This document shows positions 1,230 through 60,671 of a DNA stretch of 64,000 nucleotides, one piece after another. Every line of letters starts with the position of its first letter. Position 1 is the first letter of the stretch. Position numbers and translations under genes: made by a program. Origin of the DNA: Alphaproteobacteria bacterium (GTDB lineage: Bacteria > Pseudomonadota > Alphaproteobacteria > JAPOUT01 > G958296285); NCBI GenBank assembly GCA_965209065.1, contig OZ242373.1, positions 646,202 to 710,201 of the forward strand. Reading direction: 5' to 3'. Under the pieces are notes generated by a model. That model had not been told where the DNA came from, did not search any database, and saw nothing but the letters and a program-made list of their open reading frames with translations.

Positions 1230-3470
1230 CTATTGCGACACCTCATATTCCTCGATGCAAAAGAGCGTATGAAAGCCGAAACTCACATCTGTGCATTCGT
1301 GGGTCTTCAATTTTACTTTTTTATTGCGCTTTAAGATAATGTGATGACCCGGTTTTTTAGCAATTTTTGTCGCGGTTTTGAGGTGCGCGGAATTTGTCGA
1401 TTGCCCCCCAGCCACTTGTGGTGTAGCCATTTGTGACGTAACCACTTGTGGCGTAACCACTCGTGGTTGTTCGGGATTTCCTTCTGGTTCTTGAGTGATA
1501 GGTGATTGCGCAGGCGCTGCGCGTCCATCATCTGCCTCATCATCTATAGGAAGGTTATTAGCAGGAACAGCAAATTGAACATCATCAAGAGTTTCTATAG
1601 GTTGCCCAGGAAGTTTCTGGGGAAAAAACAAATTAAGCGAGGTCGCCCATTGATAGGTTGGCGGCATAAAATTTTCAGGCGTAAAAAGAATCCCCGTGAG
1701 CGTGATGTTATTTCCCGTAAGTCGCACCGACCTATCGGATAAAACTTCATAAACATCAGAAAATATTGTTAGGTCTCCTGATTTAGCGTTAATATCACTA
1801 AACAAGCTAATTTTATTAGTGGCAGTTAAACTAATATCTCTGTGCCGAGACGTAGCTTCTTGAGTGCTTTGAATAATTAATTCTCTTGCTTGCACATAAT
1901 TGCAAAGCTCTATGCTAGGCGCGTCTAGCTTAATGTTAGCCGTGCTAAACAAATTAACCAAAACCCTTAACGAAGACTCTGCCTCGATGCTAACATCATA
2001 ATTTAAGTTTATTGCTCTTGTGCTGTTAAATTCAATCTTGTTTCCTTTGATAGTTGTTTTTTGTTTCTCGGTGAAATGAATACTTCCGGTTGCCGTCTGT
2101 ATAAGAAAAATCACTTCCTTAGAAGCAGTATCTATGTCGCCATGGATAAAGATGTAAGAATCGGAATATATATGAACATCTATATCTGCTACAAAAGAAT
2201 AAACGTTAGTATCCTCCGCTGATAATGAAAAAAATGTTCCTGCCGTTAGGGAATTTATGTTGAAAAAATTTATGGCATTTTTGCTCGCATGTTGAGTGGT
2301 GAGGGCGCTGCCTAAAAGATTTAAGTCTATCTCCGAATAAACATCTAAAGTGCCCGTGCCAATGTTCGTAAAAGATAAGTCAAAATATCCACTAGGATAA
2401 TTTCCCATAAACATAGGAAACACCCTTTTATCATCTAACGATTGCGCCGCTTTGTTTATCAACACATAAGCATCGGCGGCGTTGATGCTACCCGAAAACC
2501 ATAAAGCATCTGTAAAATTGAAATTGAGGAGCGCGCCGTCCGTTTTGCCCTTAAATTCAGCGCCGACTTCAATTAAAATTTGCTTGGCTGGTTTGCGCGC
2601 TGTTCCTATTGATAATTTCTGAGTTGTGATGTCAGCATCGCCTGTTATTTCTATGTAATCGCCCAAAATAGTGAGGTTGCCTTCGGCTGTTGCGCTCACC
2701 GAAATTTTTCCGCTCGCTTTATCAATCGTAATTTTAGTCGCACTTACCATACCACCGAGATTAACGACGCTTGCGCGTAAATCAGTCATATCGTGGGGCA
2801 AAATGTTGATGCGCCCCTTCTCTGCCGTTAAGGTGCCGCCATTGCTTATCAAGGCGTTTAGTTTTTTCTTGCTAACCTCTATGCTAATGCCGCTTTCGGT
2901 GAAGGTAAGCATAATCTTTTCTCCCGAATAGAGGTCTATATCGCTTTTTGCGCTAGTGATAGTGCCTTGGTTGTCAATACTTTTAGAGATAAAGATAGCT
3001 CTGCTTTGAGTTGTAATAGCGCCCCTATTGGTAATAAAACCCTCGCTCACCGAAATGCTAAGGCGACCTAACCCCTGCGAAGTTTCATCGATGCGTCCCG
3101 CGATGGCTATCAGCGCGCCAACATTCACAACAGCGTTCGCTCCCAAATGCAGCCCCGCGGCGTTTTCTAATATAACCATACTATCGGCATTTAACGTGCC
3201 TCTAATCTGCGTGGCAGACTGGCTGCCAATTCTAGCAATATAACGACCCCCGCTCGGCTGAACAATGCGAACCGTTTCACCTGCATCTATATTGAAGCTA
3301 TCCCAAAACCCCACACCAACCTGCTGGCTTTGAGTAATGGTTAGCGTTTTATCATTCCTTGCCACTTGAGCTGAGCCCGCTAAGCTGCTTTCAACCGGCA
3401 AAGCAAATGCCTGCTCGCACAAAATGAAAGCAAAAATGAATACTAAAGTATTGTATTGTTTTTTTAACAT
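1230..3470 (-). CDS. TPS-domain (haemagglutination activity domain) secreted exoprotein, 746 aa, with Pro-rich linker and short C-terminal module
   Basis: N-terminal signal peptide MLKKQYNTLVFIFAFILCEQAFA. A TPS domain follows (WDSFNIDAGETVRIVQP...IRGTLNADSMVILENAAGLHLGANAVVNVGALIA). The middle is beta-helix-like with G/T/S/N-rich repeats. A Pro/Gln-rich linker (TPQVV pentapeptide repeats) precedes about 55 C-terminal residues. Confidence 0.75.
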   Translation of the reverse strand: MLKKQYNTLVFIFAFILCEQAFALPVESSLAGSAQVARNDKTLTITQSQQVGVGFWDSFNIDAGETVRIVQPSGGRYIARIGSQSATQIRGTLNADSMVILENAAGLHLGANAVVNVGALIAIAGRIDETSQGLGRLSISVSEGFITNRGAITTQSRAIFISKSIDNQGTITSAKSDIDLYSGEKIMLTFTESGISIEVSKKKLNALISNGGTLTAEKGRINILPHDMTDLRASVVNLGGMVSATKITIDKASGKISVSATAEGNLTILGDYIEITGDADITTQKLSIGTARKPAKQILIEVGAEFKGKTDGALLNFNFTDALWFSGSINAADAYVLINKAAQSLDDKRVFPMFMGNYPSGYFDLSFTNIGTGTLDVYSEIDLNLLGSALTTQHASKNAINFFNINSLTAGTFFSLSAEDTNVYSFVADIDVHIYSDSYIFIHGDIDTASKEVIFLIQTATGSIHFTEKQKTTIKGNKIEFNSTRAINLNYDVSIEAESSLRVLVNLFSTANIKLDAPSIELCNYVQARELIIQSTQEATSRHRDISLTATNKISLFSDINAKSGDLTIFSDVYEVLSDRSVRLTGNNITLTGILFTPENFMPPTYQWATSLNLFFPQKLPGQPIETLDDVQFAVPANNLPIDDEADDGRAAPAQSPITQEPEGNPEQPRVVTPQVVTSQMATPQVAGGQSTNSAHLKTATKIAKKPGHHIILKRNKKVKLKTHECTDVSFGFHTLFCIEEYEVSQ

Positions 3471-26915: not shown

Positions 26916-26989
26916 TGGAGCGGGCGAAGGGAATCGAACCCTCATCTTCAGCTTGGAAGGCTGCGGCTCTACCATTGAGCTACGCCCGC
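26916..26989 (-). tRNA. tRNA-Gly (anticodon UCC)
   Basis: The minus-strand sequence GCGGGCGTAGCTCAATGGTAGAGC...CTTCCAA...GGGTTCGATTCCC is closely similar to E. coli glyT. Confidence 0.85.
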
Positions 26990-27071: not shown

Positions 27072-27156
27072 TGGTGGAGGGAGTTGGATTTGAACCAACG
27101 TAGGCATAGCCAACGGGTTTACAGCCCGTCCCCTTTAACCACTCGGGCACCCCTCC
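27072..27156 (-). tRNA. tRNA-Tyr (anticodon GUA), long variable arm
   Basis: 85-nt class II tRNA with anticodon loop CTGTAAA. It is in the typical tyr-gly-tuf arrangement. Confidence 0.85.
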
Positions 27157-27436
27157 GATGAAGAGTCCACACAGAATTACTCGCTTTTAACCCTTTTTCG
27201 AGATTTTGTCAAGGGATTTTTGAGGATTTTTTGAGGAGTTTAACCTTTTAGAGCTGTAAAAATGGCAATTTGCTACCCTTATCCGCTAGATTTAGTTTGA
27301 GAACGAGTGCTGGGGTTGATAGAATCTAAGTGTGTTCATTACGACAGTGATTCTATCATTGGCAAGGTAAAAAATGCCCTATTAGATGTATGGTTAAATG
27401 GATAAGCAGGCAACTTACTAAAGAGCGAATGAAATA

Positions 27437-28648
27437 ATGCTACAAGTTTTACAACAAGATTTTGAAAATATAAAAGATCATTTTAACGAGCTTAATATGG
27501 ACGAATCTCATTTTGAAAATTCTAACGATATATGCACTCCATTAGAATGTGTCAAAGAGATGGTTGATGTTATCCCCAAAGAGTTTTGGAAAAGGAAAAG
27601 CCTTAAAATACTAGATAGTTGTTGTGGCAATGGAAATTTTCACGCTTACATCCAAACAAAAACAAATTTGAAAAATTTATACTTCAATGAGATAAACAAG
27701 AAACGGGTAAAAAATGCTCTAAATATATTTGGGGAAAGCATAAATATAACAACACAGGATTTCCTGTCATTTCCAGACAAAGAGGGATTTGATTTGGTCG
27801 TTTCAAATCCTCCTTATGCTAAATTTAATAATGGTATTAGGGTATCTAAAAATCATAACCTATCTAGAGATTTCATATTAAAAGCACTCAAAATCACTAA
27901 AATTAACGGATATATTTTATTTATTGCTCCAAATAATTGGATGTCGTTTTCCAATAGAAATTTATTACCGTCATTAATGAGTCAATATCAGTTTATCCAC
28001 TTAAACATCAATGGAGCAAAAAAATGGTTTCCAAAAGTTGGCTCATCTTTTACTTGGTTTCTATTGAAAAAAGTACCAAACAAGAAGCCCTTCAAAATAG
28101 AAAATGGCTATATTAAAAATGACATCCAACTTGCTAGACTAGATAGAGGTGTTAATTTTATCCCCCTTTATTATTCAAAAGAGACAAGAGCAATTTTTAA
28201 TAAAACCATCAACGCAAAAAATAAAAAGTATAAAATAGAGACTTCTAGTGATTTACATCATTATACAAAAAAGCACTTGTTGCGGGATAGCTCAAGCGAG
28301 AGATTTTGCTATAAACTAATCCATACTCCAACGCAAACCGCTTGGAGCTCTGTGCCTCATAAATATCAAACGGGATGGAAGGTTTTTATTTCCCTAACGA
28401 ATCAATACCAAACTTTCATAGATAATTGTGGAATGACGCAAAGCGTCGCATTTATTCGTTGTAAATCAAAAAAGGAGGCATTAAAGGTGGAAAAAGAATT
28501 GAATAATAATGTTTTTAAGTTCCTTAATAATTTAACACGATACGGCAATTTCAATAATGTTAAAGTATTACAACAATTTCCGCTTTTTTCTCAAGTTAGA
28601 TTAACTGACAAAGAAAAACTTTTTATTGAATATTTTTTAAGGACTTAA
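27437..28648 (+). CDS. N6-adenine DNA methyltransferase (gamma-class amino-MTase; motif I DSCCGNGNF, motif IV NPPY)
   Basis: 403 aa in a markedly AT-rich region. FxGxG-like motif I (LDSCCGNGNFHAY) and the catalytic NPPY; about 250 C-terminal aa are consistent with a target-recognition domain. Confidence 0.7.
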   Translation: MLQVLQQDFENIKDHFNELNMDESHFENSNDICTPLECVKEMVDVIPKEFWKRKSLKILDSCCGNGNFHAYIQTKTNLKNLYFNEINKKRVKNALNIFGESINITTQDFLSFPDKEGFDLVVSNPPYAKFNNGIRVSKNHNLSRDFILKALKITKINGYILFIAPNNWMSFSNRNLLPSLMSQYQFIHLNINGAKKWFPKVGSSFTWFLLKKVPNKKPFKIENGYIKNDIQLARLDRGVNFIPLYYSKETRAIFNKTINAKNKKYKIETSSDLHHYTKKHLLRDSSSERFCYKLIHTPTQTAWSSVPHKYQTGWKVFISLTNQYQTFIDNCGMTQSVAFIRCKSKKEALKVEKELNNNVFKFLNNLTRYGNFNNVKVLQQFPLFSQVRLTDKEKLFIEYFLRT

Positions 28649-28650
28649 CA

Positions 28651-29172
28651 ATGGCAAGTAAGTATAATAAAAATGATAGGCCATTAAAAAAGCTAGAAGA
28701 TTTATTTAATGAACTGAACTATAGCCAATTCCCTTATAAAAAGCACTTCATTCACTTGTGTAACATTACACCTGATGCTGAAAATGAAAAACTTGAAATA
28801 AAGAGTTTAGGAAATGATAAAAAGATTAATGATAAAGGTGTAGTATATGTCTTTGTTATAGGGAAAAAGATATTCAAGATAGGAAGTAGTACGGTTTCTA
28901 TAAAAGAAAGAATCGGCTCTTATAACTCTGGCAAAATTCTATACAGAGGGGCAGGAACTAACTCTACCACAAATTACTTTGTTCTACAAAGTTTTATTAA
29001 AATAGGCAAAGTCGTGAAAGTTTACGCCTACTTTCCCAATAAAAAACATTATACAATTTTTGGAGAAAAAGGGGTTGAAGCTTTCCCGCCCGCTAAAAAA
29101 ATAGAAAAAAAGATTTTAACTGATTTAAAGAAAAAATATGATCGTTTGCCAATAGGATGTAGCCAAAAATAA
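28651..29172 (+). CDS. Small GIY-YIG-like nuclease candidate (putative cognate restriction endonuclease)
   Basis: 173 aa, starting 2 nt after the MTase stop. GVVYVFVIGKKIFKIGSS...KERIGSY resembles the GIY...YIG...R core. Same low-GC composition as the MTase. Confidence 0.45.
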   Translation: MASKYNKNDRPLKKLEDLFNELNYSQFPYKKHFIHLCNITPDAENEKLEIKSLGNDKKINDKGVVYVFVIGKKIFKIGSSTVSIKERIGSYNSGKILYRGAGTNSTTNYFVLQSFIKIGKVVKVYAYFPNKKHYTIFGEKGVEAFPPAKKIEKKILTDLKKKYDRLPIGCSQK

Positions 29173-29313
29173 GAAAAACTAAAAACCTTACAAGATGCCC
29201 AGTATCTCCATGTCTAACAGCCTTGAAAATATAGCCTGAGTTGATTGCCTCTTGACAGAATGAAAAAAGCCCCTATCCTTACCCTTTAGGAATTTTTACC
29301 ACTCGGAGGAAAT

Positions 29314-30060
29314 ATGAGAAATATCAGCGGCGAAACTATTATCATTACTGGTGCCTCTTCCGGCTTTGGCGCCGAAACTGCACGAATGCTCGTCAAGGAC
29401 AAGGGCGCGAATGTCGTCTTGGGTGCTCGGCGCGCCGAAAAACTTCAGGAGCTCATCAAGGAACTCGGCGCGGATAAGGCTATCGCCAAGCCGTGCGATG
29501 TCCGCAAGTGTGATGACCTCAAGGCTCTCGCCGCCGCTGGTGTCGAGAAGTTCGGCACCATCGATGGTCTCGTCAATAACGCCGGGATTATGCCTCTGTC
29601 TATGCTCGCCGCCGGGCGCACCGACGAGTGGGACGATATGATAGACACCAACATCAAGGGCGTGCTTTATGCCATCAATGCCGTGCTGCCCATAATGATA
29701 AAAAATGAGAAGGGCTCGATTGTCAATATCTCTTCGGTTGCGGGCAGACGCGTTAGCCCCGCGGCGGCGGTCTATTCGGGGACGAAGTTCGCGGTGCACG
29801 CCATCTCTGAGGGATTGCGCCAAGAGGTCGCGCCCCATAAGATTCAAGTTTGTTGTGTTTATCCCGGCGCCTTCCAAACCGAGCTTGCTGGCTCTATCAA
29901 GGACGACAAGGTGCTGGAGATGGTGCGGAAAAGATTTAGTGGCGCGGGTGCTATCGGCGATGCGAAGCACATCGCGAATGCGATTGTGTTTGCTTTGAGT
30001 CAAGACCCATCGGTAGCGGTGAACGAGCTGATGCTGCGCCCTGTCGCACAAGATATGTAG
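29314..30060 (+). CDS. Short-chain dehydrogenase/reductase (SDR) family oxidoreductase
   Basis: 248 aa. TGASSGFGAETAR (TGxxxGxG), NNAG, and the catalytic YSGTKFAV (YxxxK). High GC, in contrast to the flanking AT-rich genes. Confidence 0.85.
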   Translation: MRNISGETIIITGASSGFGAETARMLVKDKGANVVLGARRAEKLQELIKELGADKAIAKPCDVRKCDDLKALAAAGVEKFGTIDGLVNNAGIMPLSMLAAGRTDEWDDMIDTNIKGVLYAINAVLPIMIKNEKGSIVNISSVAGRRVSPAAAVYSGTKFAVHAISEGLRQEVAPHKIQVCCVYPGAFQTELAGSIKDDKVLEMVRKRFSGAGAIGDAKHIANAIVFALSQDPSVAVNELMLRPVAQDM

Positions 30061-30155
30061 CACCACAGCGAGACCTTAAAAGATATATCAGGCACGGAAA
30101 TATGGTGCCTGCTTGCCAATAGCTTGACTGACTTTTAATTTTAGTTCATTATTTA

Positions 30156-31910
30156 ATGCAATTCAATCAAACACAAGGGGGAAAGTGTATGCCATCACCT
30201 GAAATCGAAAGCGGAAAAATATTGGTAAAGAAAATTTTCTCTGAACTATGGTTTCGCATCCCAGAATACCAACGCCCATACGTCTGGGGAAATGATGAAG
30301 TAAATAATTTGCTAGACGACATTTCCTATGCTATGCAAGGTGCGTCTGATTCTGAATACTTTTTGGGTTCCTTCGTTTATCAAACTAAACCACCTAATCC
30401 TGCTGCTAATATTCCATTTCAGGAGTATGATTTGCTAGATGGGCAGCAACGCATGATCACGCTTTTGTTGTTATTCTCTGTTATAAGGGATTTGACAAAA
30501 GATGAAGACGACAAAAAAGAATGTCAAAAGTGTATTTTTGTAGAAGCTGAACCTAGACGCAAGATTCCCGAGCGCTCTCGGATTACTTTTGGCATTCGCC
30601 AAGGCGCACAGAATTTTATTGAAACCCTAGTGAAGGAAAAAGGTTTTACCTTAAACAATGAATCACTAATGGACTATGAAAAATCAGGCAATGATACCAG
30701 CATCCAAAATATGGCTAAGGCTATTGGTTATATCAAAAAATTCTTTGCCAATAATACAAATATCAAATTTAATAAACTATTAGAATTTATTTTAAATAAA
30801 GTTTTACTGATCTATGTTTCTACCGAAAATCTAGATGATGCATTTCGGTTATTTACCATATTGAATGCTCGCGGCGTCTCCCTGCGTAATAGCGACATCT
30901 TGAAATCTATCAACCTTGGAGCTTTAACTACTGAGAAAGATAAAGAGAAATATGCTAAGCTTTGGGAAGATGCGGAAAGTGAATTAGGTGAAGAATTTGA
31001 CCGCTTCCTCCATTTCATTCGCACACTATTGGTAAAAGAAAAATCTCGCCTTAGCCTGTTGCAAGAGTTTGAAAATAAAATCTACAAACCTAAAAGCGCA
31101 GGGCAAAAGAAGCCATTACTAGCTAAAGGAAAAGCAACCTTCGAAATGGTGGATAAGCACTTAAAGCTATACCAGAAATTGTTCAATGATTCAAACTACG
31201 ATCTAACCAAAAGTTTTGAATTTGATAATCTTCTCAAAGTGATGAGAATTGGGATACCTTCTTCCGACTGGATTCCGCCATTGCTACATTATTACAATAA
31301 GTTTGGAAAAACGCGCCTCTATAATTTCTTGCAAATACTCGATAACAAGTTTTCAACAGATTGGATTATACGAGAAACACCAACGGCACGTACTGAGGCA
31401 ATGAATGCTGTTATCAAGGCTATTGACAAAAGTAAGACTGCCAATGATGTGTTCTATTCAAAAGACCTGAATATAATAGATTACGATGAGTTACAGCAAA
31501 CGCTAGAAAGCAAAATATATGGCAAGCCATTTGCTCGCTATATCCTTTTGAAGTTGGATTATCATTTCCGAAGCCATGATCAAAAAATGAACTTTGAGAC
31601 CTTATCCGTTGAGCATATACTTCCGCAAACTCCCAAATCAAGCAGTCAGTGGGTGAAAGATTTTAGTGAAGATGAAAGACTTGAGCTAACAAATACACTT
31701 GGTAATCTTGTATTGATTACACGTCGCAAAAACACATCTCAGGGGCGGCTTGATTACACGGAAAAGAAAAAACGCTATTTCGAGAAAAATATAGACACAT
31801 GCCCAAATTCTTTACGAGTTTTGCAAAAATACAACCAATGGACGCCTAAACAACTAAAAGAAAACCATAAGCTTGTTATCAAAAAACTCATGAAGTATTA
31901 TCCTCGCTAA
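30156..31910 (+). CDS. DUF262/DUF1524 two-domain protein (GmrSD-like type IV modification-dependent restriction enzyme family)
   Basis: 584 aa, AT-rich. N-terminal ParB/DUF262 motif (IPEYQRPYVWGNDEV; DGQQR). C-terminal DUF1524 His-Me finger-like region (SVEHILPQTP ... LGNLVLITRRKNTSQG). Confidence 0.7.
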   Translation: MQFNQTQGGKCMPSPEIESGKILVKKIFSELWFRIPEYQRPYVWGNDEVNNLLDDISYAMQGASDSEYFLGSFVYQTKPPNPAANIPFQEYDLLDGQQRMITLLLLFSVIRDLTKDEDDKKECQKCIFVEAEPRRKIPERSRITFGIRQGAQNFIETLVKEKGFTLNNESLMDYEKSGNDTSIQNMAKAIGYIKKFFANNTNIKFNKLLEFILNKVLLIYVSTENLDDAFRLFTILNARGVSLRNSDILKSINLGALTTEKDKEKYAKLWEDAESELGEEFDRFLHFIRTLLVKEKSRLSLLQEFENKIYKPKSAGQKKPLLAKGKATFEMVDKHLKLYQKLFNDSNYDLTKSFEFDNLLKVMRIGIPSSDWIPPLLHYYNKFGKTRLYNFLQILDNKFSTDWIIRETPTARTEAMNAVIKAIDKSKTANDVFYSKDLNIIDYDELQQTLESKIYGKPFARYILLKLDYHFRSHDQKMNFETLSVEHILPQTPKSSSQWVKDFSEDERLELTNTLGNLVLITRRKNTSQGRLDYTEKKKRYFEKNIDTCPNSLRVLQKYNQWTPKQLKENHKLVIKKLMKYYPR

Positions 31911-31926
31911 AATATAAGAGAAAAAT

Positions 31927-32003
<77 letters not shown>

Positions 32004-32060
32004 ACAATAATCTCTCTTAACACTATTCCTAAACAAAATCAAAAAAAAATCTCTACCGCT

Positions 32061-59951: not shown

Positions 59952-60671
59952 TTATATTTTTAGCAATATATCAGTAAGCGCGCTGGGTTTAGAGAAAAAA
60001 GGCGAATGGTCGGTATCAAGCGAAACAATCTCCTTGATGGCGAGGTTTTCAGCCATTTTTCTTTGCCCATCGGGTCTAATTGCCTTGTCCCTCTCGCAGA
60101 CAATCGCCATTTTCGGCACTCTGCCTAAATTTTCTTCGCTCCAATGAACCGGCTGGCGCAACGCGCGCAGAGGCTCTAGGCAAAGTTTGGCTTTAGCGAA
60201 AGCTATATCATCAAGGGGAGTTTCATTATAAAAAATGTCTTTGATTTTTTCTTTTTTTATTCCCACGCCCCCGCGCAAGAAATGAACCTTTTGGTCTTCG
60301 GGTTGAATGGGAGAGACATCAGGCGCGAGGTCGGCGAGGCTCTTGCCCGAAGGCGGCACGAACGCGCACAAATAAACCAGCTTCTTTATCCTATCGGGAT
60401 ATTTCTCCCCCAAAGCCGTAATGGACATACCGCCCATGCTGTGTCCGACAAGAATAACGGGTTCGTCTGCCCTTTCTATTATTTTAGACATTTTTTTGAT
60501 GTAGGTAGCCAAGGTTGTTGTCCAAGGCAGAATTTTGCGCAAACTCCCGCTTTTATGGGCGGGCATGCTGGGCGCGTCTATCTTATGACCTGCTGCTTCT
60601 AAAATAGTATGAACCTTATGCCAGCACCATCTGCCGTGCCACGCGCCGTGAATCAAGACATAATGAGCCAT
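59952..60671 (-). CDS. Alpha/beta hydrolase (esterase; SABP2/methylesterase-like)
   Basis: 239 aa. The N-terminus HYVLIHGAWHGRWCWHKV and the nucleophile elbow GHSMGG. Confidence 0.8.
   Translation of the reverse strand: MAHYVLIHGAWHGRWCWHKVHTILEAAGHKIDAPSMPAHKSGSLRKILPWTTTLATYIKKMSKIIERADEPVILVGHSMGGMSITALGEKYPDRIKKLVYLCAFVPPSGKSLADLAPDVSPIQPEDQKVHFLRGGVGIKKEKIKDIFYNETPLDDIAFAKAKLCLEPLRALRQPVHWSEENLGRVPKMAIVCERDKAIRPDGQRKMAENLAIKEIVSLDTDHSPFFSKPSALTDILLKI

What the first reader, a model, noticed from the sequence alone, without database searches (positions are those of the whole stretch)
27160..31926. Low-GC defense island inserted between tRNA-Tyr/Gly and tRNA-fMet: MTase plus GIY-YIG pair and a GmrSD-like DUF262/DUF1524 gene
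The composition drops sharply to roughly 28-32% GC between the tRNA-Tyr 3' flank and tRNA-fMet.

The island encodes:
- an N6-adenine methyltransferase (DSCCGNGNF, NPPY);
- immediately after it (2-nt gap), a 173-aa GIY-YIG-like ORF that fits the cognate restriction nuclease of a compact type II R-M system;
- a 584-aa DUF262-DUF1524 protein of the GmrSD type IV family.

Being flanked by tRNA genes is typical of horizontally acquired islands. No integrase or transposase remains.

Together with the adjacent TPS cluster (also tRNA-bracketed), positions 27.1-58.2 kb look like a composite accessory region embedded next to the rif operon.
Basis: partly seen in the sequence, partly recalled or inferred. 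Interest (0 to 1): 0.65.

Follow-up and report, generated by a model that had tools for sequence, protein, structure and literature searches.

The report
Two defence modules flanking a resident gene
This 4.8-kb stretch holds an ordinary Hpy188I-type restriction-modification gene pair and a separate GmrSD-like (HEC-06-type) nuclease gene, each acquired on its own on either side of a resident dehydrogenase gene, at a chromosomal site where related bacteria carry other restriction systems.

Summary
One gene was missed, and the region is not one uniform low-GC island.

- **R-M pair.** The gamma-class N6-adenine methyltransferase (27437-28648) is followed after 2 nt by a 173-aa full-length homolog of the solved GIY-YIG enzyme R.Hpy188I (E=1.5e-45). 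Every catalytic and every base-contacting residue is conserved, so it most likely recognises TCNGA.
- **GmrSD-like gene.** It runs 30189-31910 (573 aa) with DGQQR and EHILP motifs, and is closest to the experimentally validated HEC-06 class.
- **Missed gene.** Between them lies a short-chain dehydrogenase (SDR, 29314-30060) with 56% GC. In relatives this SDR sits next to tRNA-fMet with no defence genes.
- **Three separate histories.** GC3 is 0.27, 0.66 and 0.36 for R-M, SDR and GmrSD (core 0.53±0.05). Strain-level polymorphism and TCNGA site density also differ between the modules.
- **Comparative context.** In the two nearest genomes, the slot upstream of tRNA-Tyr-tRNA-Gly-tuf holds a Type IIG or a Type III R-M instead. 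The nearest GmrSD homolog also abuts tRNA-fMet, at the end of a prophage-like block.

No integrase or att repeats were found. This is a new member of known kinds, of modest interest.

The parts
27072..27156 (-). tRNA-Tyr(gta). First gene of the conserved tRNA-Tyr-tRNA-Gly-tuf-tRNA-Trp-secE-nusG array and the left anchor of the variable slot.
   Evidence: ARAGORN and Rfam. Conserved in L001, L002, L030 and L034.
27185..27213 (-). Promoter-like TTGACA-17 nt-TAAAAG upstream of tRNA-Tyr. This is resident DNA, so the R-M insert starts to its right, at about 27.22-27.25 kb.
   Evidence: Sequence read. L001 and L002 have TTGACG at the aligned position. Promoter function is inferred, not shown.
27437..28648 (+). 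Gamma-class N6-adenine DNA methyltransferase (403 aa). Motif I is DSCCGNGNF at residue 60, motif IV is NPPY at residue 124, and the target-recognition region is C-terminal. Predicted to methylate TCNGA.
   Evidence: PADLOC MTase_II PDLC03273 6.3e-166 over residues 7-400. Pfam Eco57I and N6_Mtase. Weak PDB hits to M.TaqI. 64% identical to the MTase paired with the REase homolog in L082. GC 30%, GC3 0.277.
28651..29172 (+). GIY-YIG type II restriction endonuclease (173 aa), homolog of R.Hpy188I. An AAGGA Shine-Dalgarno at 28639-28643 lies inside the MTase 3' end, which suggests translational coupling.
   Evidence: PDB 3oqg/3or3 R.Hpy188I, E=1.5e-45 over residues 6-172. PADLOC REase_II PDLC03493 1.9e-49. 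Y66, K76, R87, Y91, E152, S90, T103, S105 and Q172 match Hpy188I Y63, K73, R84, Y88, E149, S87, T100, S102 and Q169. Junction sequence.
29314..30060 (+). Short-chain dehydrogenase/reductase (248 aa, YdfG-like). A resident-type gene, not part of either defence system.
   Evidence: Pfam adh_short 9.5e-58. GC 55.7%, GC3 0.659. Homologs at 76-78% identity sit as RmuC-SDR in L081 and L100 (GDPD lies further upstream); in L101 the upstream gene is 58% identical to L081 RmuC. In L081 tRNA-fMet follows the SDR. 14 of the 15 strain differences that fall between 27189 and 32003 lie in the SDR or its upstream spacer.
30189..31910 (+). GmrSD-like DUF262-DUF1524 NTPase/HNH nuclease (573 aa; the longest ORF starts at 30156). 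Motifs, in 573-aa numbering: YQRPYVW 27, DGQQR 84-88, RLFTILN 220, EHILP 475-479, GNLVLITRRKN 505-515.
   Evidence: Pfam GmrSD_N 1.7e-34 and GmrSD_C 4.1e-20. PADLOC Orf5 1.6e-74 and HEC-06 3.6e-56, both full length. Motifs invariant in 120 homologs. PDB 9jfl and SspE. GC 36.6%, GC3 0.361.
31927..32003 (-). Initiator tRNA-Met(cat) with a C1:A72 mismatch. Its 3' end faces the GmrSD stop codon 16 nt away. Right anchor.
   Evidence: ARAGORN. 96% identical to the L081 tRNA-fMet, and about 92% identical to L085 over the tRNA plus its 3' trailer. The same convergent GmrSD/tRNA-fMet geometry occurs in L085.

Best explanation
The region is a small mosaic defence locus made of two independent foreign modules inserted on either side of a resident SDR gene.

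**Module 1 (about 27.25-29.2 kb): an Hpy188I-type type II R-M operon.**
- The gamma-class MTase is translated first and is predicted to methylate the adenine of TCNGA.
- The GIY-YIG endonuclease, coupled through a 2-nt gap, would act as a dimer with a single metal ion per active site, as in Hpy188I. It would cleave unmethylated TCN^GA in incoming DNA and be blocked by TCNGm6A through the conserved Ser90 (Hpy188I Ser87).

**Module 2 (about 30.06-31.91 kb): a stand-alone GmrSD-like (HEC-06-type) enzyme.**
- Its DUF262 NTPase (DGQQR) gates a DUF1524 HNH nuclease (EHILP).
- It is inferred to attack DNA that escapes classical restriction, for example hypermodified phage DNA. The two modules would then be complementary.
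- It abuts the 3' end of tRNA-fMet and is most likely the leftover terminal cargo gene of a tRNA-fMet-integrated prophage or island.

**Context.** The slot upstream of the tRNA-Tyr-tRNA-Gly-tuf operon is a recurrent R-M insertion hotspot in this alphaproteobacterial lineage.

**Shown:** family membership, intact motifs, gene order, composition, comparative context.
**Inferred:** TCNGA specificity, activity, the target of the GmrSD-like enzyme, and the insertion history.
For: **R-M identity**
- Hits.
- All five catalytic and all four base-contact residues of Hpy188I are conserved.
- The MTase motif order I then IV is that of the gamma class, the class of M.Hpy188I.
- The M-R pair co-occurs in L082, at 64% and 56% identity. 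In L083 the MTase is frameshifted.

**TCNGA**
- The window has 75 sites against 194±14 in shuffles and 141 under a 3rd-order Markov model.
- The R-M module itself has 0 sites against 5.3 expected, P=0.005.

**GmrSD-like protein**
- Domains and motifs.
- HEC-06 requires the homologous DGQQR and EH residues for defence.

**Separate origins of the three parts**
- GC3 is 0.27, 0.66 and 0.36 for R-M, SDR and GmrSD.
- Against strain L084 there is 1 difference in 3,927 nt of the defence modules and 14 in 888 nt of the SDR plus its spacer, p=6e-10.
- TCNGA O/E is 0 in the R-M module and 0.95 in the GmrSD module.

**Resident SDR**
- L081 has SDR, then 103 nt, then tRNA-fMet with no GmrSD. L081 and L100 have RmuC upstream instead of the R-M pair.

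**Hotspot**
- L001 carries a Type IIG enzyme (1.5e-292) and L002 a Type III Mod+Res pair (6e-148, 6e-219) in the same slot.

**Prophage link and mobility**
- In L085 the 72%-identical GmrSD abuts tRNA-fMet at the end of a block with an S24 repressor-like gene, HTH_17, AAA_24 and a DEAD helicase. It is low-GC there too.
- GmrSD-like genes occur on 718 plasmid records and near the ends of viral contigs.
Against: - No methylation or cleavage data exist, and specificity is inferred at only about 55% identity.
- The DNA-intercalating Cys90 of Hpy188I is Ser here. His76 is also Ser, although only its main chain acts in Hpy188I.
- TCNGA depletion is not unique. CCNGG, GTNAC, GGNCC and ACNGT are also depleted, and more distant relatives without the R-M at this locus show milder depletion, 0.66-0.94 by the 3rd-order model.
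- Strong genome-wide avoidance sits uneasily with a very recent arrival of the R-M module.
- The MTase could not be compared directly with M.Hpy188I.
- No att repeats or integrase define the inserts.
- tRNA-fMet is inverted relative to the SDR when compared with L081, so at least one further rearrangement must be assumed.
- The SDR's GC3 is itself a high outlier, so its resident status rests on synteny with distant relatives whose kinship to the host is not independently established.
- Promoter and terminator scans are at chance level.
Confidence: 0.8

Rival explanations
1. One island was acquired en bloc between the tRNAs. MTase, REase, SDR and GmrSD would have arrived together on one element whose integrase was later lost.
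For: All four genes are co-oriented and tightly packed between two tRNA genes. The same four-gene order occurs in a second assembly, L084. The SDR's GC3 (0.66) is also atypical for the host.
Against: - There are three distinct compositions: 30%, 56% and 37% GC.
- SDR and tRNA-fMet are adjacent, without defence genes, in L081. RmuC-SDR is conserved in L081 and L100.
- Strain divergence is at least 30-fold higher in the SDR than in the flanking modules.
- TCNGA density is 0 in the R-M module and 0.95 of expectation in the GmrSD module.
- The closest homologs of the R-M pair and of GmrSD lie in unrelated contexts, never together.
Confidence: 0.08
2. The R-M pair is no longer a working restriction system. 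It could be an orphan or decaying MTase with an inactive nuclease, or the 173-aa protein could be a homing-type GIY-YIG (T5orf172) nuclease rather than a restriction enzyme.
For: Pfam only reports T5orf172 at 1.3e-4. Decayed versions of the family exist: a frameshifted MTase in L083 and a solitary 162-aa REase remnant in Helicobacter cetorum. Cys90 is replaced by Ser.
Against: - Both ORFs match the family profiles over their full length.
- Every catalytic and base-contact residue is kept.
- Both genes are intact in a second strain, with 0 and 1 amino-acid changes.
- The coupled gene arrangement is preserved.
- An intact REase without a working MTase would be lethal (established R-M biology).
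Confidence: 0.07
3. The DUF262-DUF1524 protein is not a modification-dependent type IV enzyme. It could work like SspE (a phosphorothioate-sensing nickase), or as a HEC-06-type effector with a different trigger.
For: The best PADLOC matches are Orf5 and HEC-06, not a type IV model, with SspE matched at the N-terminus. PDB hits are 'DUF262 domain-containing protein' entries and SspE. The HEC-06 paper stresses that it differs structurally and phenotypically from BrxU and GmrSD, and its target is unknown.
Against: No sspABCD or dnd genes lie nearby. SspE matches cover only about 90 N-terminal residues. The domain architecture and motifs are those of the GmrSD family. This is a rival only for the trigger, not for the fold or the defence role.
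Confidence: 0.3
4. The low-GC genes are old, vertically inherited residents whose AT-richness is maintained for other reasons, so there was no horizontal transfer.
For: Genome-wide TCNGA avoidance (O/E 0.4-0.5) suggests long exposure to this specificity. GmrSD sits next to tRNA-fMet in both the window and L085.
Against: - GC3 is 3.5-5.5 sd below core.
- The genes are absent from the locus in all 80 NusG-anchored relatives and from L081.
- Different R-M types occupy the slot in L001 and L002.
- The modules are almost free of polymorphism while resident DNA differs by 0.5-1.6% between strains.
- The homologs have a patchy cross-phylum distribution.
Confidence: 0.04

Closest known systems
Hpy188I restriction-modification system of Helicobacter pylori (R.Hpy188I GIY-YIG REase, PDB 3OQG/3OR3, with the gamma-class N6A MTase M.Hpy188I; site TCN^GA)
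   Same: - The REase has about the same length (173 vs 170 aa) and aligns end to end at about 55% identity.
- It has the unusual GIY...KIG active site (Tyr, Lys, Arg, Tyr, Glu) and all four base-contact residues.
- It sits immediately downstream of a gamma-class N6-adenine MTase.
- Marine metagenomic members of this branch were already described in 2008 (PMC2630997).
   Different: - The host is a ~1.7-Mb uncultured alphaproteobacterium, not Helicobacter.
- The intercalating Cys90 is Ser, and His76 is Ser.
- Specificity and activity are untested.
- The MTase's relation to M.Hpy188I itself could not be checked.
HEC-06 (Hma-embedded candidate 06), an experimentally validated GmrSD-like defence protein (bioRxiv 10.1101/2024.01.29.577857)
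   Same: - It is a single polypeptide of DUF262, linker and DUF1524, about 560-580 aa long.
- DGQQR and an E-H-x-x-P HNH motif sit at nearly the same positions (Q79/R80 and E471/H472 in HEC-06; Q87/R88 and E475/H476 here).
- The full-length PADLOC HEC-06 match is 3.6e-56.
   Different: - It is not embedded in an Hma, BREX or type I system. It stands alone next to a tRNA gene.
- A better PADLOC match is the model labelled 'Orf5' (1.6e-74), whose provenance I could not establish.
Classical GmrSD and BrxU type IV restriction enzymes (Eco94GmrSD, EcoCT GmrSD, BrxU PDB 7P9K)
   Same: The domain architecture and the DGQQR and (D/E)HxxP motifs are shared. It is expected to work as an NTP-gated HNH nuclease and to complement a methylation-based system, as BrxU complements BREX (PMC8565348).
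   Different: No BrxU or GmrSD chain was found at E<=0.01 in the PDB sequence search. Modified-cytosine dependence has not been shown for this clade.
Defence hotspots and R-M variable slots at conserved chromosomal positions; prophage-end defence cargo
   Same: Different defence systems (type II, IIG, III) occupy the same flanked slot in related genomes. The GmrSD homolog in L085 is the terminal gene of a prophage-like block at tRNA-fMet.
   Different: No integrase, att repeats or other mobility signature is present in the window. The turnover mechanism (homologous recombination on conserved flanks) is inferred only.

Membership tests
R.Hpy188I branch of GIY-YIG type II restriction endonucleases | Full-length sequence homology to R.Hpy188I | tested here: met
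   phmmer against PDB 3oqg_A gives E=1.5e-45, residues 6-172 of 173 against 14-179 of 180. PADLOC REase_II PDLC03493 gives 1.9e-49 over 4-169 of 170.
R.Hpy188I branch of GIY-YIG type II restriction endonucleases | Variant GIY-(K)IG active site: Tyr63, Lys73, Arg84, Tyr88 and metal-binding Glu149 | tested here: met
   Y66, K76, R87, Y91 and E152 in the window protein. These columns are nearly invariant in 76 family members. Residue roles come from PMC3045582.
R.Hpy188I branch of GIY-YIG type II restriction endonucleases | TCNGA-reading residues Ser87, Thr100, Ser102 and Gln169, plus intercalating Cys90 | tested here: inconclusive
   S90, T103, S105 and Q172 are conserved, but Cys90 is Ser93, as in 4 of 76 relatives. 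Conserved contacts make TCNGA likely but do not prove it.
R.Hpy188I branch of GIY-YIG type II restriction endonucleases | Adjacent cognate gamma-class N6-adenine MTase related to M.Hpy188I | tested here: inconclusive
   Adjacency (2-nt gap) and gamma-class motif order are met, and the pairing is conserved in L082. Direct similarity to M.Hpy188I could not be tested because no sequence or REBASE access was available. PADLOC MTase_II PDLC03273 gives 6.3e-166.
R.Hpy188I branch of GIY-YIG type II restriction endonucleases | Cleavage at TCN^GA, blocked by TCNGm6A | not testable with these tools
   Only indirect evidence: TCNGA O/E is 0.38-0.53 in the window and there are 0 sites in the R-M module against 5.3 expected.
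GmrSD-like (DUF262-DUF1524) defence nucleases | N-terminal DUF262 (ParB/Srx-like NTPase) with the (I/V/L)DGQQR motif | tested here: met
   Pfam GmrSD_N 1.7e-34. LDGQQR at 83-88, invariant in 120 homologs.
GmrSD-like (DUF262-DUF1524) defence nucleases | C-terminal DUF1524 His-Me/HNH nuclease with a (D/E)H-x-x-P motif and downstream Asn | tested here: met
   Pfam GmrSD_C 4.1e-20. EHILP at 475-479, N506 and N515 are invariant.
GmrSD-like (DUF262-DUF1524) defence nucleases | Both domains fused in one polypeptide | tested here: met
   A single 573-aa ORF. PADLOC Orf5 and HEC-06 matches span residues 16-580.
Type IV (modification-dependent) restriction enzyme in the strict sense | Cleaves only modified DNA (glc-hmC, hmC or 5mC) | not testable with these tools
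   No biochemical data. The closest validated relative, HEC-06, has an undefined target.
Integrase-mediated tRNA-linked genomic island | Integrase or recombinase gene within or at the edge of the island | tested here: not met
   The four ORFs have no such domain, and the spacers are too short to hide one.
Integrase-mediated tRNA-linked genomic island | Direct repeat (att) duplicating the 3' part of the target tRNA | tested here: not met
   No partial copy of tRNA-Met, tRNA-Tyr or tRNA-Gly occurs anywhere in the window.
Integrase-mediated tRNA-linked genomic island | Located at the 3' end of a tRNA gene | tested here: inconclusive
   Met for the GmrSD module: it is 16 nt from the tRNA-fMet 3' end, and the geometry is the same in L085. 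Not met for the R-M module, which is on the 5' side of tRNA-Tyr.
Defence island / hotspot | Two or more defence systems clustered, with different content at the same flanked locus in related genomes | tested here: met
   Type II R-M plus a GmrSD-like gene lie within 4.7 kb. Type IIG in L001 and Type III in L002 lie between the same hydrolase/tRNA-Thr and tRNA-Tyr flanks. A distant GmrSD-like gene lies upstream of tRNA-Tyr in L028.

The most novel reading that the evidence does not exclude
The position immediately upstream of the tRNA-Tyr-tRNA-Gly-tuf operon may be a lineage-conserved defence hotspot that works without an integrase. This would apply to a poorly sampled clade of small-genome (~1.6-1.7 Mb) Alphaproteobacteria. 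Whole R-M systems of different types (II, IIG, III) would be swapped there by homologous recombination on the conserved tRNA and housekeeping flanks. In the window strain this slot would have fused, by rearrangement, with a second hotspot at tRNA-fMet (a prophage-end GmrSD-like gene). The near-absence of polymorphism in the defence modules, against 0.5-1.6% divergence in the flanking resident DNA, would then record very recent population-level spread of both modules.
Probability: 0.4. Interest if true: 0.4.

Novelty: new member of a known kind. Interest (0 to 1): 0.3.

Why it matters
- **A testable prediction.** It gives an uncultured, small-genome alphaproteobacterium an R-M specificity that can be checked (TCNGm6A, an Hpy188I isoschizomer) and a HEC-06-type GmrSD-like nuclease. 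This helps in reading its methylome, in binning, and in linking phages to hosts.
- **A worked example.** One apparent 'low-GC island' splits into separate acquisitions around a resident gene when composition, synteny, strain polymorphism and restriction-site density are considered together.
- **A hotspot example.** The comparison with L001 and L002 adds a case of R-M type turnover at a fixed chromosomal slot next to a core tRNA/tuf operon.
- **No new mechanism.** None of this changes current understanding. The protein families, their mechanisms and the hotspot phenomenon are all already known.

Tried and rejected
- **Exact-sequence look-ups.** Look-ups of the window's REase, SDR and 584-aa ORF found nothing. 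The 573-aa GmrSD start did work.
- **att scar in L081.** I first read a 53-nt repeat of the tRNA-fMet 3' half in L081 as an att scar. Alignment showed it is part of a decayed tandem second tRNA-fMet copy with a 27-nt insertion, so I withdrew that reading.
- **att repeats in the window.** Searches for att-like repeats or tRNA fragments found only chance-level matches.
- **RmuC remnant.** A search upstream of the SDR found none.
- **Viral-contig scans.** Single-protein scans for the REase and GmrSD found nothing. Profile-based scans found only distant relatives at 23-44% identity.
- **Metagenome scan.** The scan with the SDR gave only relatives at 54% identity or less, too distant to help.
- **Helicobacter cetorum.** Its REase homolog has no adjacent MTase, so it could not link the window MTase to M.Hpy188I.
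- **Plasmid search.** No close relative of the MTase was found.
- **Promoter and terminator scans.** Both were at chance level.
- **Rfam.** It found only the three tRNAs.
- **TCNGA depletion as proof of specificity.** I rejected this, because four other palindromes are similarly depleted and relatives show partial depletion.
- **Structure prediction.** I did not run it for the REase, because sequence homology to a solved structure is already decisive.
- **'Orf5' label.** I could not find the meaning of this PADLOC model name.

Full report
**Observation**

The window carries tRNA-Gly (26916-26989), tRNA-Tyr (27072-27156) and tRNA-Met(cat) (31927-32003), all on the minus strand (Rfam). The tRNA-Met reads 5'-CGCGGGG...CCCCGCAACCA, which gives a C1:A72 mismatch. 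'tRNA-fMet' is therefore a fair reading.

Four plus-strand ORFs lie between tRNA-Tyr and tRNA-Met:

| ORF | Coordinates | Length |
|---|---|---|
| MTase | 27437-28648 | 403 aa |
| REase | 28651-29172 | 173 aa |
| SDR | 29314-30060 | 248 aa |
| DUF262-DUF1524 | 30156-31910 | 584 aa as the longest ORF |

The composition is not uniformly low. It is 28-33% GC over 27.25-29.25 kb, 53-56% over 29.25-30.1 kb, and 34-39% over 30.25-32 kb, against about 50% in the flanks. Thirteen core ORFs have GC3 0.53±0.05. MTase is 0.277, REase 0.264 and GmrSD 0.361. The 248-aa gene is 0.659. The departures are therefore real, but they define three blocks, not one.

**The R-M pair**

The MTase matches a narrow PADLOC type II methyltransferase model at 6.3e-166, and Pfam Eco57I and N6_Mtase. 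Motif I (DSCCGNGNF, residue 60) precedes motif IV (NPPY, residue 124), with a long C-terminal region. This is the gamma-class order, which is the class reported for M.Hpy188I (PMC2630997).

The 173-aa protein aligns end to end with the crystallised GIY-YIG restriction enzyme R.Hpy188I (3OQG/3OR3; E=1.5e-45). It also matches a 170-position PADLOC REase_II model at 1.9e-49.

I used the residue roles given in the structure paper (PMC3045582) and checked each one in a 78-sequence alignment.
- Catalytic residues Tyr63, Lys73, Arg84, Tyr88 and Glu149 are Y66, K76, R87, Y91 and E152 here.
- Base-reading residues Ser87 (which also senses N6-methyladenine), Thr100, Ser102 and Gln169 are S90, T103, S105 and Q172 here.
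- Two positions differ. The intercalating Cys90 is Ser, and His76 is Ser, although His76 acts through its main chain.

The MTase stop codon and the REase start codon are separated by two bases. An AAGGA Shine-Dalgarno lies inside the MTase 3' end, which fits coupled, MTase-first expression.

The pairing is a property of the family. In L082, a 26%-GC contig, an MTase 64% identical to this one overlaps a REase 56% identical to this one. In L083 the MTase is present but frameshifted.

I conclude that this is an Hpy188I-type type II R-M system, probably specific for TCNGA. Activity and specificity are inferred, not shown.

**TCNGA frequency**

TCNGA occurs 75 times in the window. Dinucleotide shuffles give 194±14, and a third-order Markov model gives 141. 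This is not specific to TCNGA. Of all 256 XYNZW words, the five most depleted are all palindromes: CCNGG, GTNAC, TCNGA, GGNCC and ACNGT. L081 shows the same set. More distant relatives show TCNGA O/E of 0.66-0.94 by the third-order model.

The density per module is more informative:

| Segment | TCNGA observed vs expected, or O/E |
|---|---|
| R-M module | 0 vs 5.3 (P=0.005) |
| GmrSD module | 6 vs 6.3 |
| Host core | O/E 0.41 |
| TPS cluster | O/E 0.29 |

This is consistent with TCNGA mattering to the R-M module and to the host lineage. It also suggests that the GmrSD gene came from a different background. It is supportive evidence, not proof.

**The GmrSD-like gene**

Pfam gives GmrSD_N (1.7e-34) and GmrSD_C (4.1e-20). 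The best full-length PADLOC matches are 'Orf5' (1.6e-74) and HEC-06 (3.6e-56). SspE models match only the N-terminus.

The public gene call (P0213) and the homologs start at the second ATG, 30189, which follows AAGGGGGA. In that 573-aa numbering the protein has YQRPYVW (27), DGQQR (84-88), RLFTILN (220), EHILP (475-479) and GNLVLITRRKN (505-515). The key residues are invariant in 120 homologs.

These are the family motifs described for GmrSD and BrxU (PMC8565348, PMC10952713). In HEC-06, mutations in DGQQR (Q79A, R80A) and in EHICP (E471A, H472A) abolish phage defence. The protein is therefore an intact member of the GmrSD-like family, closest to the HEC-06 type. Whether it depends on DNA modification, and on which one, is unknown.

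**The missed gene and the mosaic**

The 248-aa protein is a classical short-chain dehydrogenase (adh_short 9.5e-58).

Its closest homologs (76-78% identity) lie in a conserved RmuC-SDR arrangement in L081 and L100, with a GDPD gene further upstream. In L101 the upstream gene is 58% identical to the L081 RmuC. In L081 the SDR is followed 103 nt later by a tRNA-fMet 96% identical to the window's. There is no GmrSD gene between them and no R-M upstream. The window contains no RmuC.

A second assembly of the same population, L084, is 99.6% identical over 7.7 kb and has the same gene order. The differences are strikingly uneven:

| Segment | Differences | Length |
|---|---|---|
| The two low-GC modules | 1 | 3,927 nt |
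| SDR plus its upstream spacer | 14 | 888 nt |
| TPS gene | 15 | 2,908 nt |

Six of the nine coding differences in the SDR are at third codon positions. The contrast between the SDR segment and the defence modules gives Fisher p=6e-10.

Composition, synteny, polymorphism and TCNGA density all agree. The SDR has a different, resident-type history, and the two defence modules are separate, younger additions. Two caveats apply. The SDR's GC3 is itself high for this genome. And how closely the L081, L100 and L101 organisms are related to the host cannot be established from the data available.

**How the modules got there**

No integrase, transposase or att-like repeats are present.

For the GmrSD module, the nearest homolog (72% identity; L085, GCA_024304995.1) is also followed by a convergent tRNA-fMet with a conserved 3' trailer. 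It is low-GC there too (38% in a 48% locus). It is the terminal gene of a block with an S24 repressor-like peptidase, a QueC-like gene, HTH_17, AAA_24 and a DEAD/ResIII helicase, which looks like a prophage. Distant relatives sit near the ends of viral contigs and on 718 plasmid records.

The simplest reading is that the window's GmrSD gene is the remaining cargo end of an element that used tRNA-fMet as its attachment site.

In the window, tRNA-fMet is inverted relative to the SDR when compared with L081. Inversion of a [tRNA-fMet + GmrSD] block would reconcile the two arrangements. This is speculation.

For the R-M module, the left boundary lies just beyond the preserved tRNA-Tyr promoter-like element, at about 27185-27213 on the minus strand.

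**A recurrent hotspot**

I anchored on NusG and fetched the homologous locus from 80 genomes. The lineage is poorly sampled: the best match has 68% NusG identity and 91% tuf identity.

In the two nearest genomes, L001 and L002, an alpha/beta-hydrolase next to tRNA-Thr(tgt) lies 3.3-4.3 kb from tRNA-Tyr. This hydrolase is homologous to window 59952-60671. In the window the same two markers are about 33 kb apart.

That short interval holds a Type IIG REase-MTase in L001 (PADLOC 1.5e-292). In L002 it holds a Type III Mod+Res pair (6e-148 and 6e-219). L028 has a distant GmrSD-like gene upstream of tRNA-Tyr. The slot upstream of tRNA-Tyr-tRNA-Gly-tuf is therefore a recurrent R-M site.

The variable stretch in fact extends to about 59.9 kb.

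**Comparison with known systems, and verdict**

The R-M pair is a new member of the Hpy188I family, whose marine metagenomic members were already noted in 2008. The nuclease gene is a new member of the GmrSD-like, HEC-06-type family. The arrangement is a typical small defence locus at a hotspot, and nothing here requires a new mechanism.

The single uniform island, the '3' flank' of tRNA-Tyr and the omission of the SDR were not. Interest is modest. The most useful outputs are a testable methylation motif for an uncultured bacterium and the hotspot and mosaic analysis.

Noticed in passing
whole window (1-64000); L081: Of all 256 XYNZW 5-mers, the five most depleted are all palindromes: CCNGG 0.39, GTNAC 0.51, TCNGA 0.53, GGNCC 0.62 and ACNGT 0.62 (3rd-order Markov O/E). 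The next lowest is 0.79. L081 shows the same set. This looks like a lineage-wide restriction-avoidance signature covering several specificities.
   Followed up: partly
L001 4614-7820; L002 3663-7858: The slot between the alpha/beta-hydrolase/tRNA-Thr(tgt) and tRNA-Tyr holds a Type IIG REase-MTase in L001 and a Type III Mod+Res pair in L002, both at lower GC than their flanks. So different R-M types occupy the same slot in related genomes.
   Followed up: yes
window 27189-34911 vs L084: Strain-level differences are very unevenly spread: 1 in 3.9 kb of the defence modules, 14 in 0.9 kb of the SDR plus its spacer, and 15 in 2.9 kb of the TPS gene. The clusters at 29445-29448 and 30031/30034 hint at recombination tracts.
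   Followed up: partly
L081 10845-11090: There are tandem tRNA-fMet genes. The second copy carries a 27-nt insertion in the anticodon arm and an acceptor-stem change, and ARAGORN does not call it. It may be a decayed duplicate or an interrupted tRNA.
   Followed up: partly
L085 1-8000: A prophage-like block lies next to the nearest GmrSD homolog. It has an S24 peptidase, a 614-aa protein with a weak QueC hit (possibly 7-deazaguanine DNA-modification chemistry), HTH_17, AAA_24, a DEAD/ResIII helicase and DUF6511. No integrase lies within the fetched 17.8 kb.
   Followed up: no
window 32061-57817 (-): Three giant co-oriented ORFs of 1488, 3760 and 3290 aa fill this stretch. The first has a TPS (two-partner secretion) domain in L084's annotation. 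GC3 is 0.43-0.45, below core, yet TCNGA is even more depleted than in core (O/E 0.29). The stretch is bracketed by tRNA-fMet on one side and tRNA-Pro/tRNA-Arg on the other.
   Followed up: no
window 1230-3470 (-): A 746-aa ORF has GC3 0.408, the lowest among the 'core' ORFs left of tRNA-Tyr. It may be another atypical gene.
   Followed up: no
window 30156-30188: The longest ORF of the GmrSD-like gene starts 33 nt upstream of the likely true start at 30189, which has an AAGGGGGA Shine-Dalgarno and agrees with the homologs and the public gene call.
   Followed up: yes
L082 4627-6519; L083: In L082 the homologous R-M pair begins 40 nt after the 3' end of a tRNA-Phe. In both L082 and L083 it lies beside a type III pantothenate kinase gene, but in different orientations. 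The two-gene unit therefore seems to move without any linked mobility gene.
   Followed up: partly
PADLOC result for window 30156-31910: The best PADLOC models for the GmrSD-like protein are labelled 'Orf5' (12 or more models). I could not find which published system this label refers to.
   Followed up: partly
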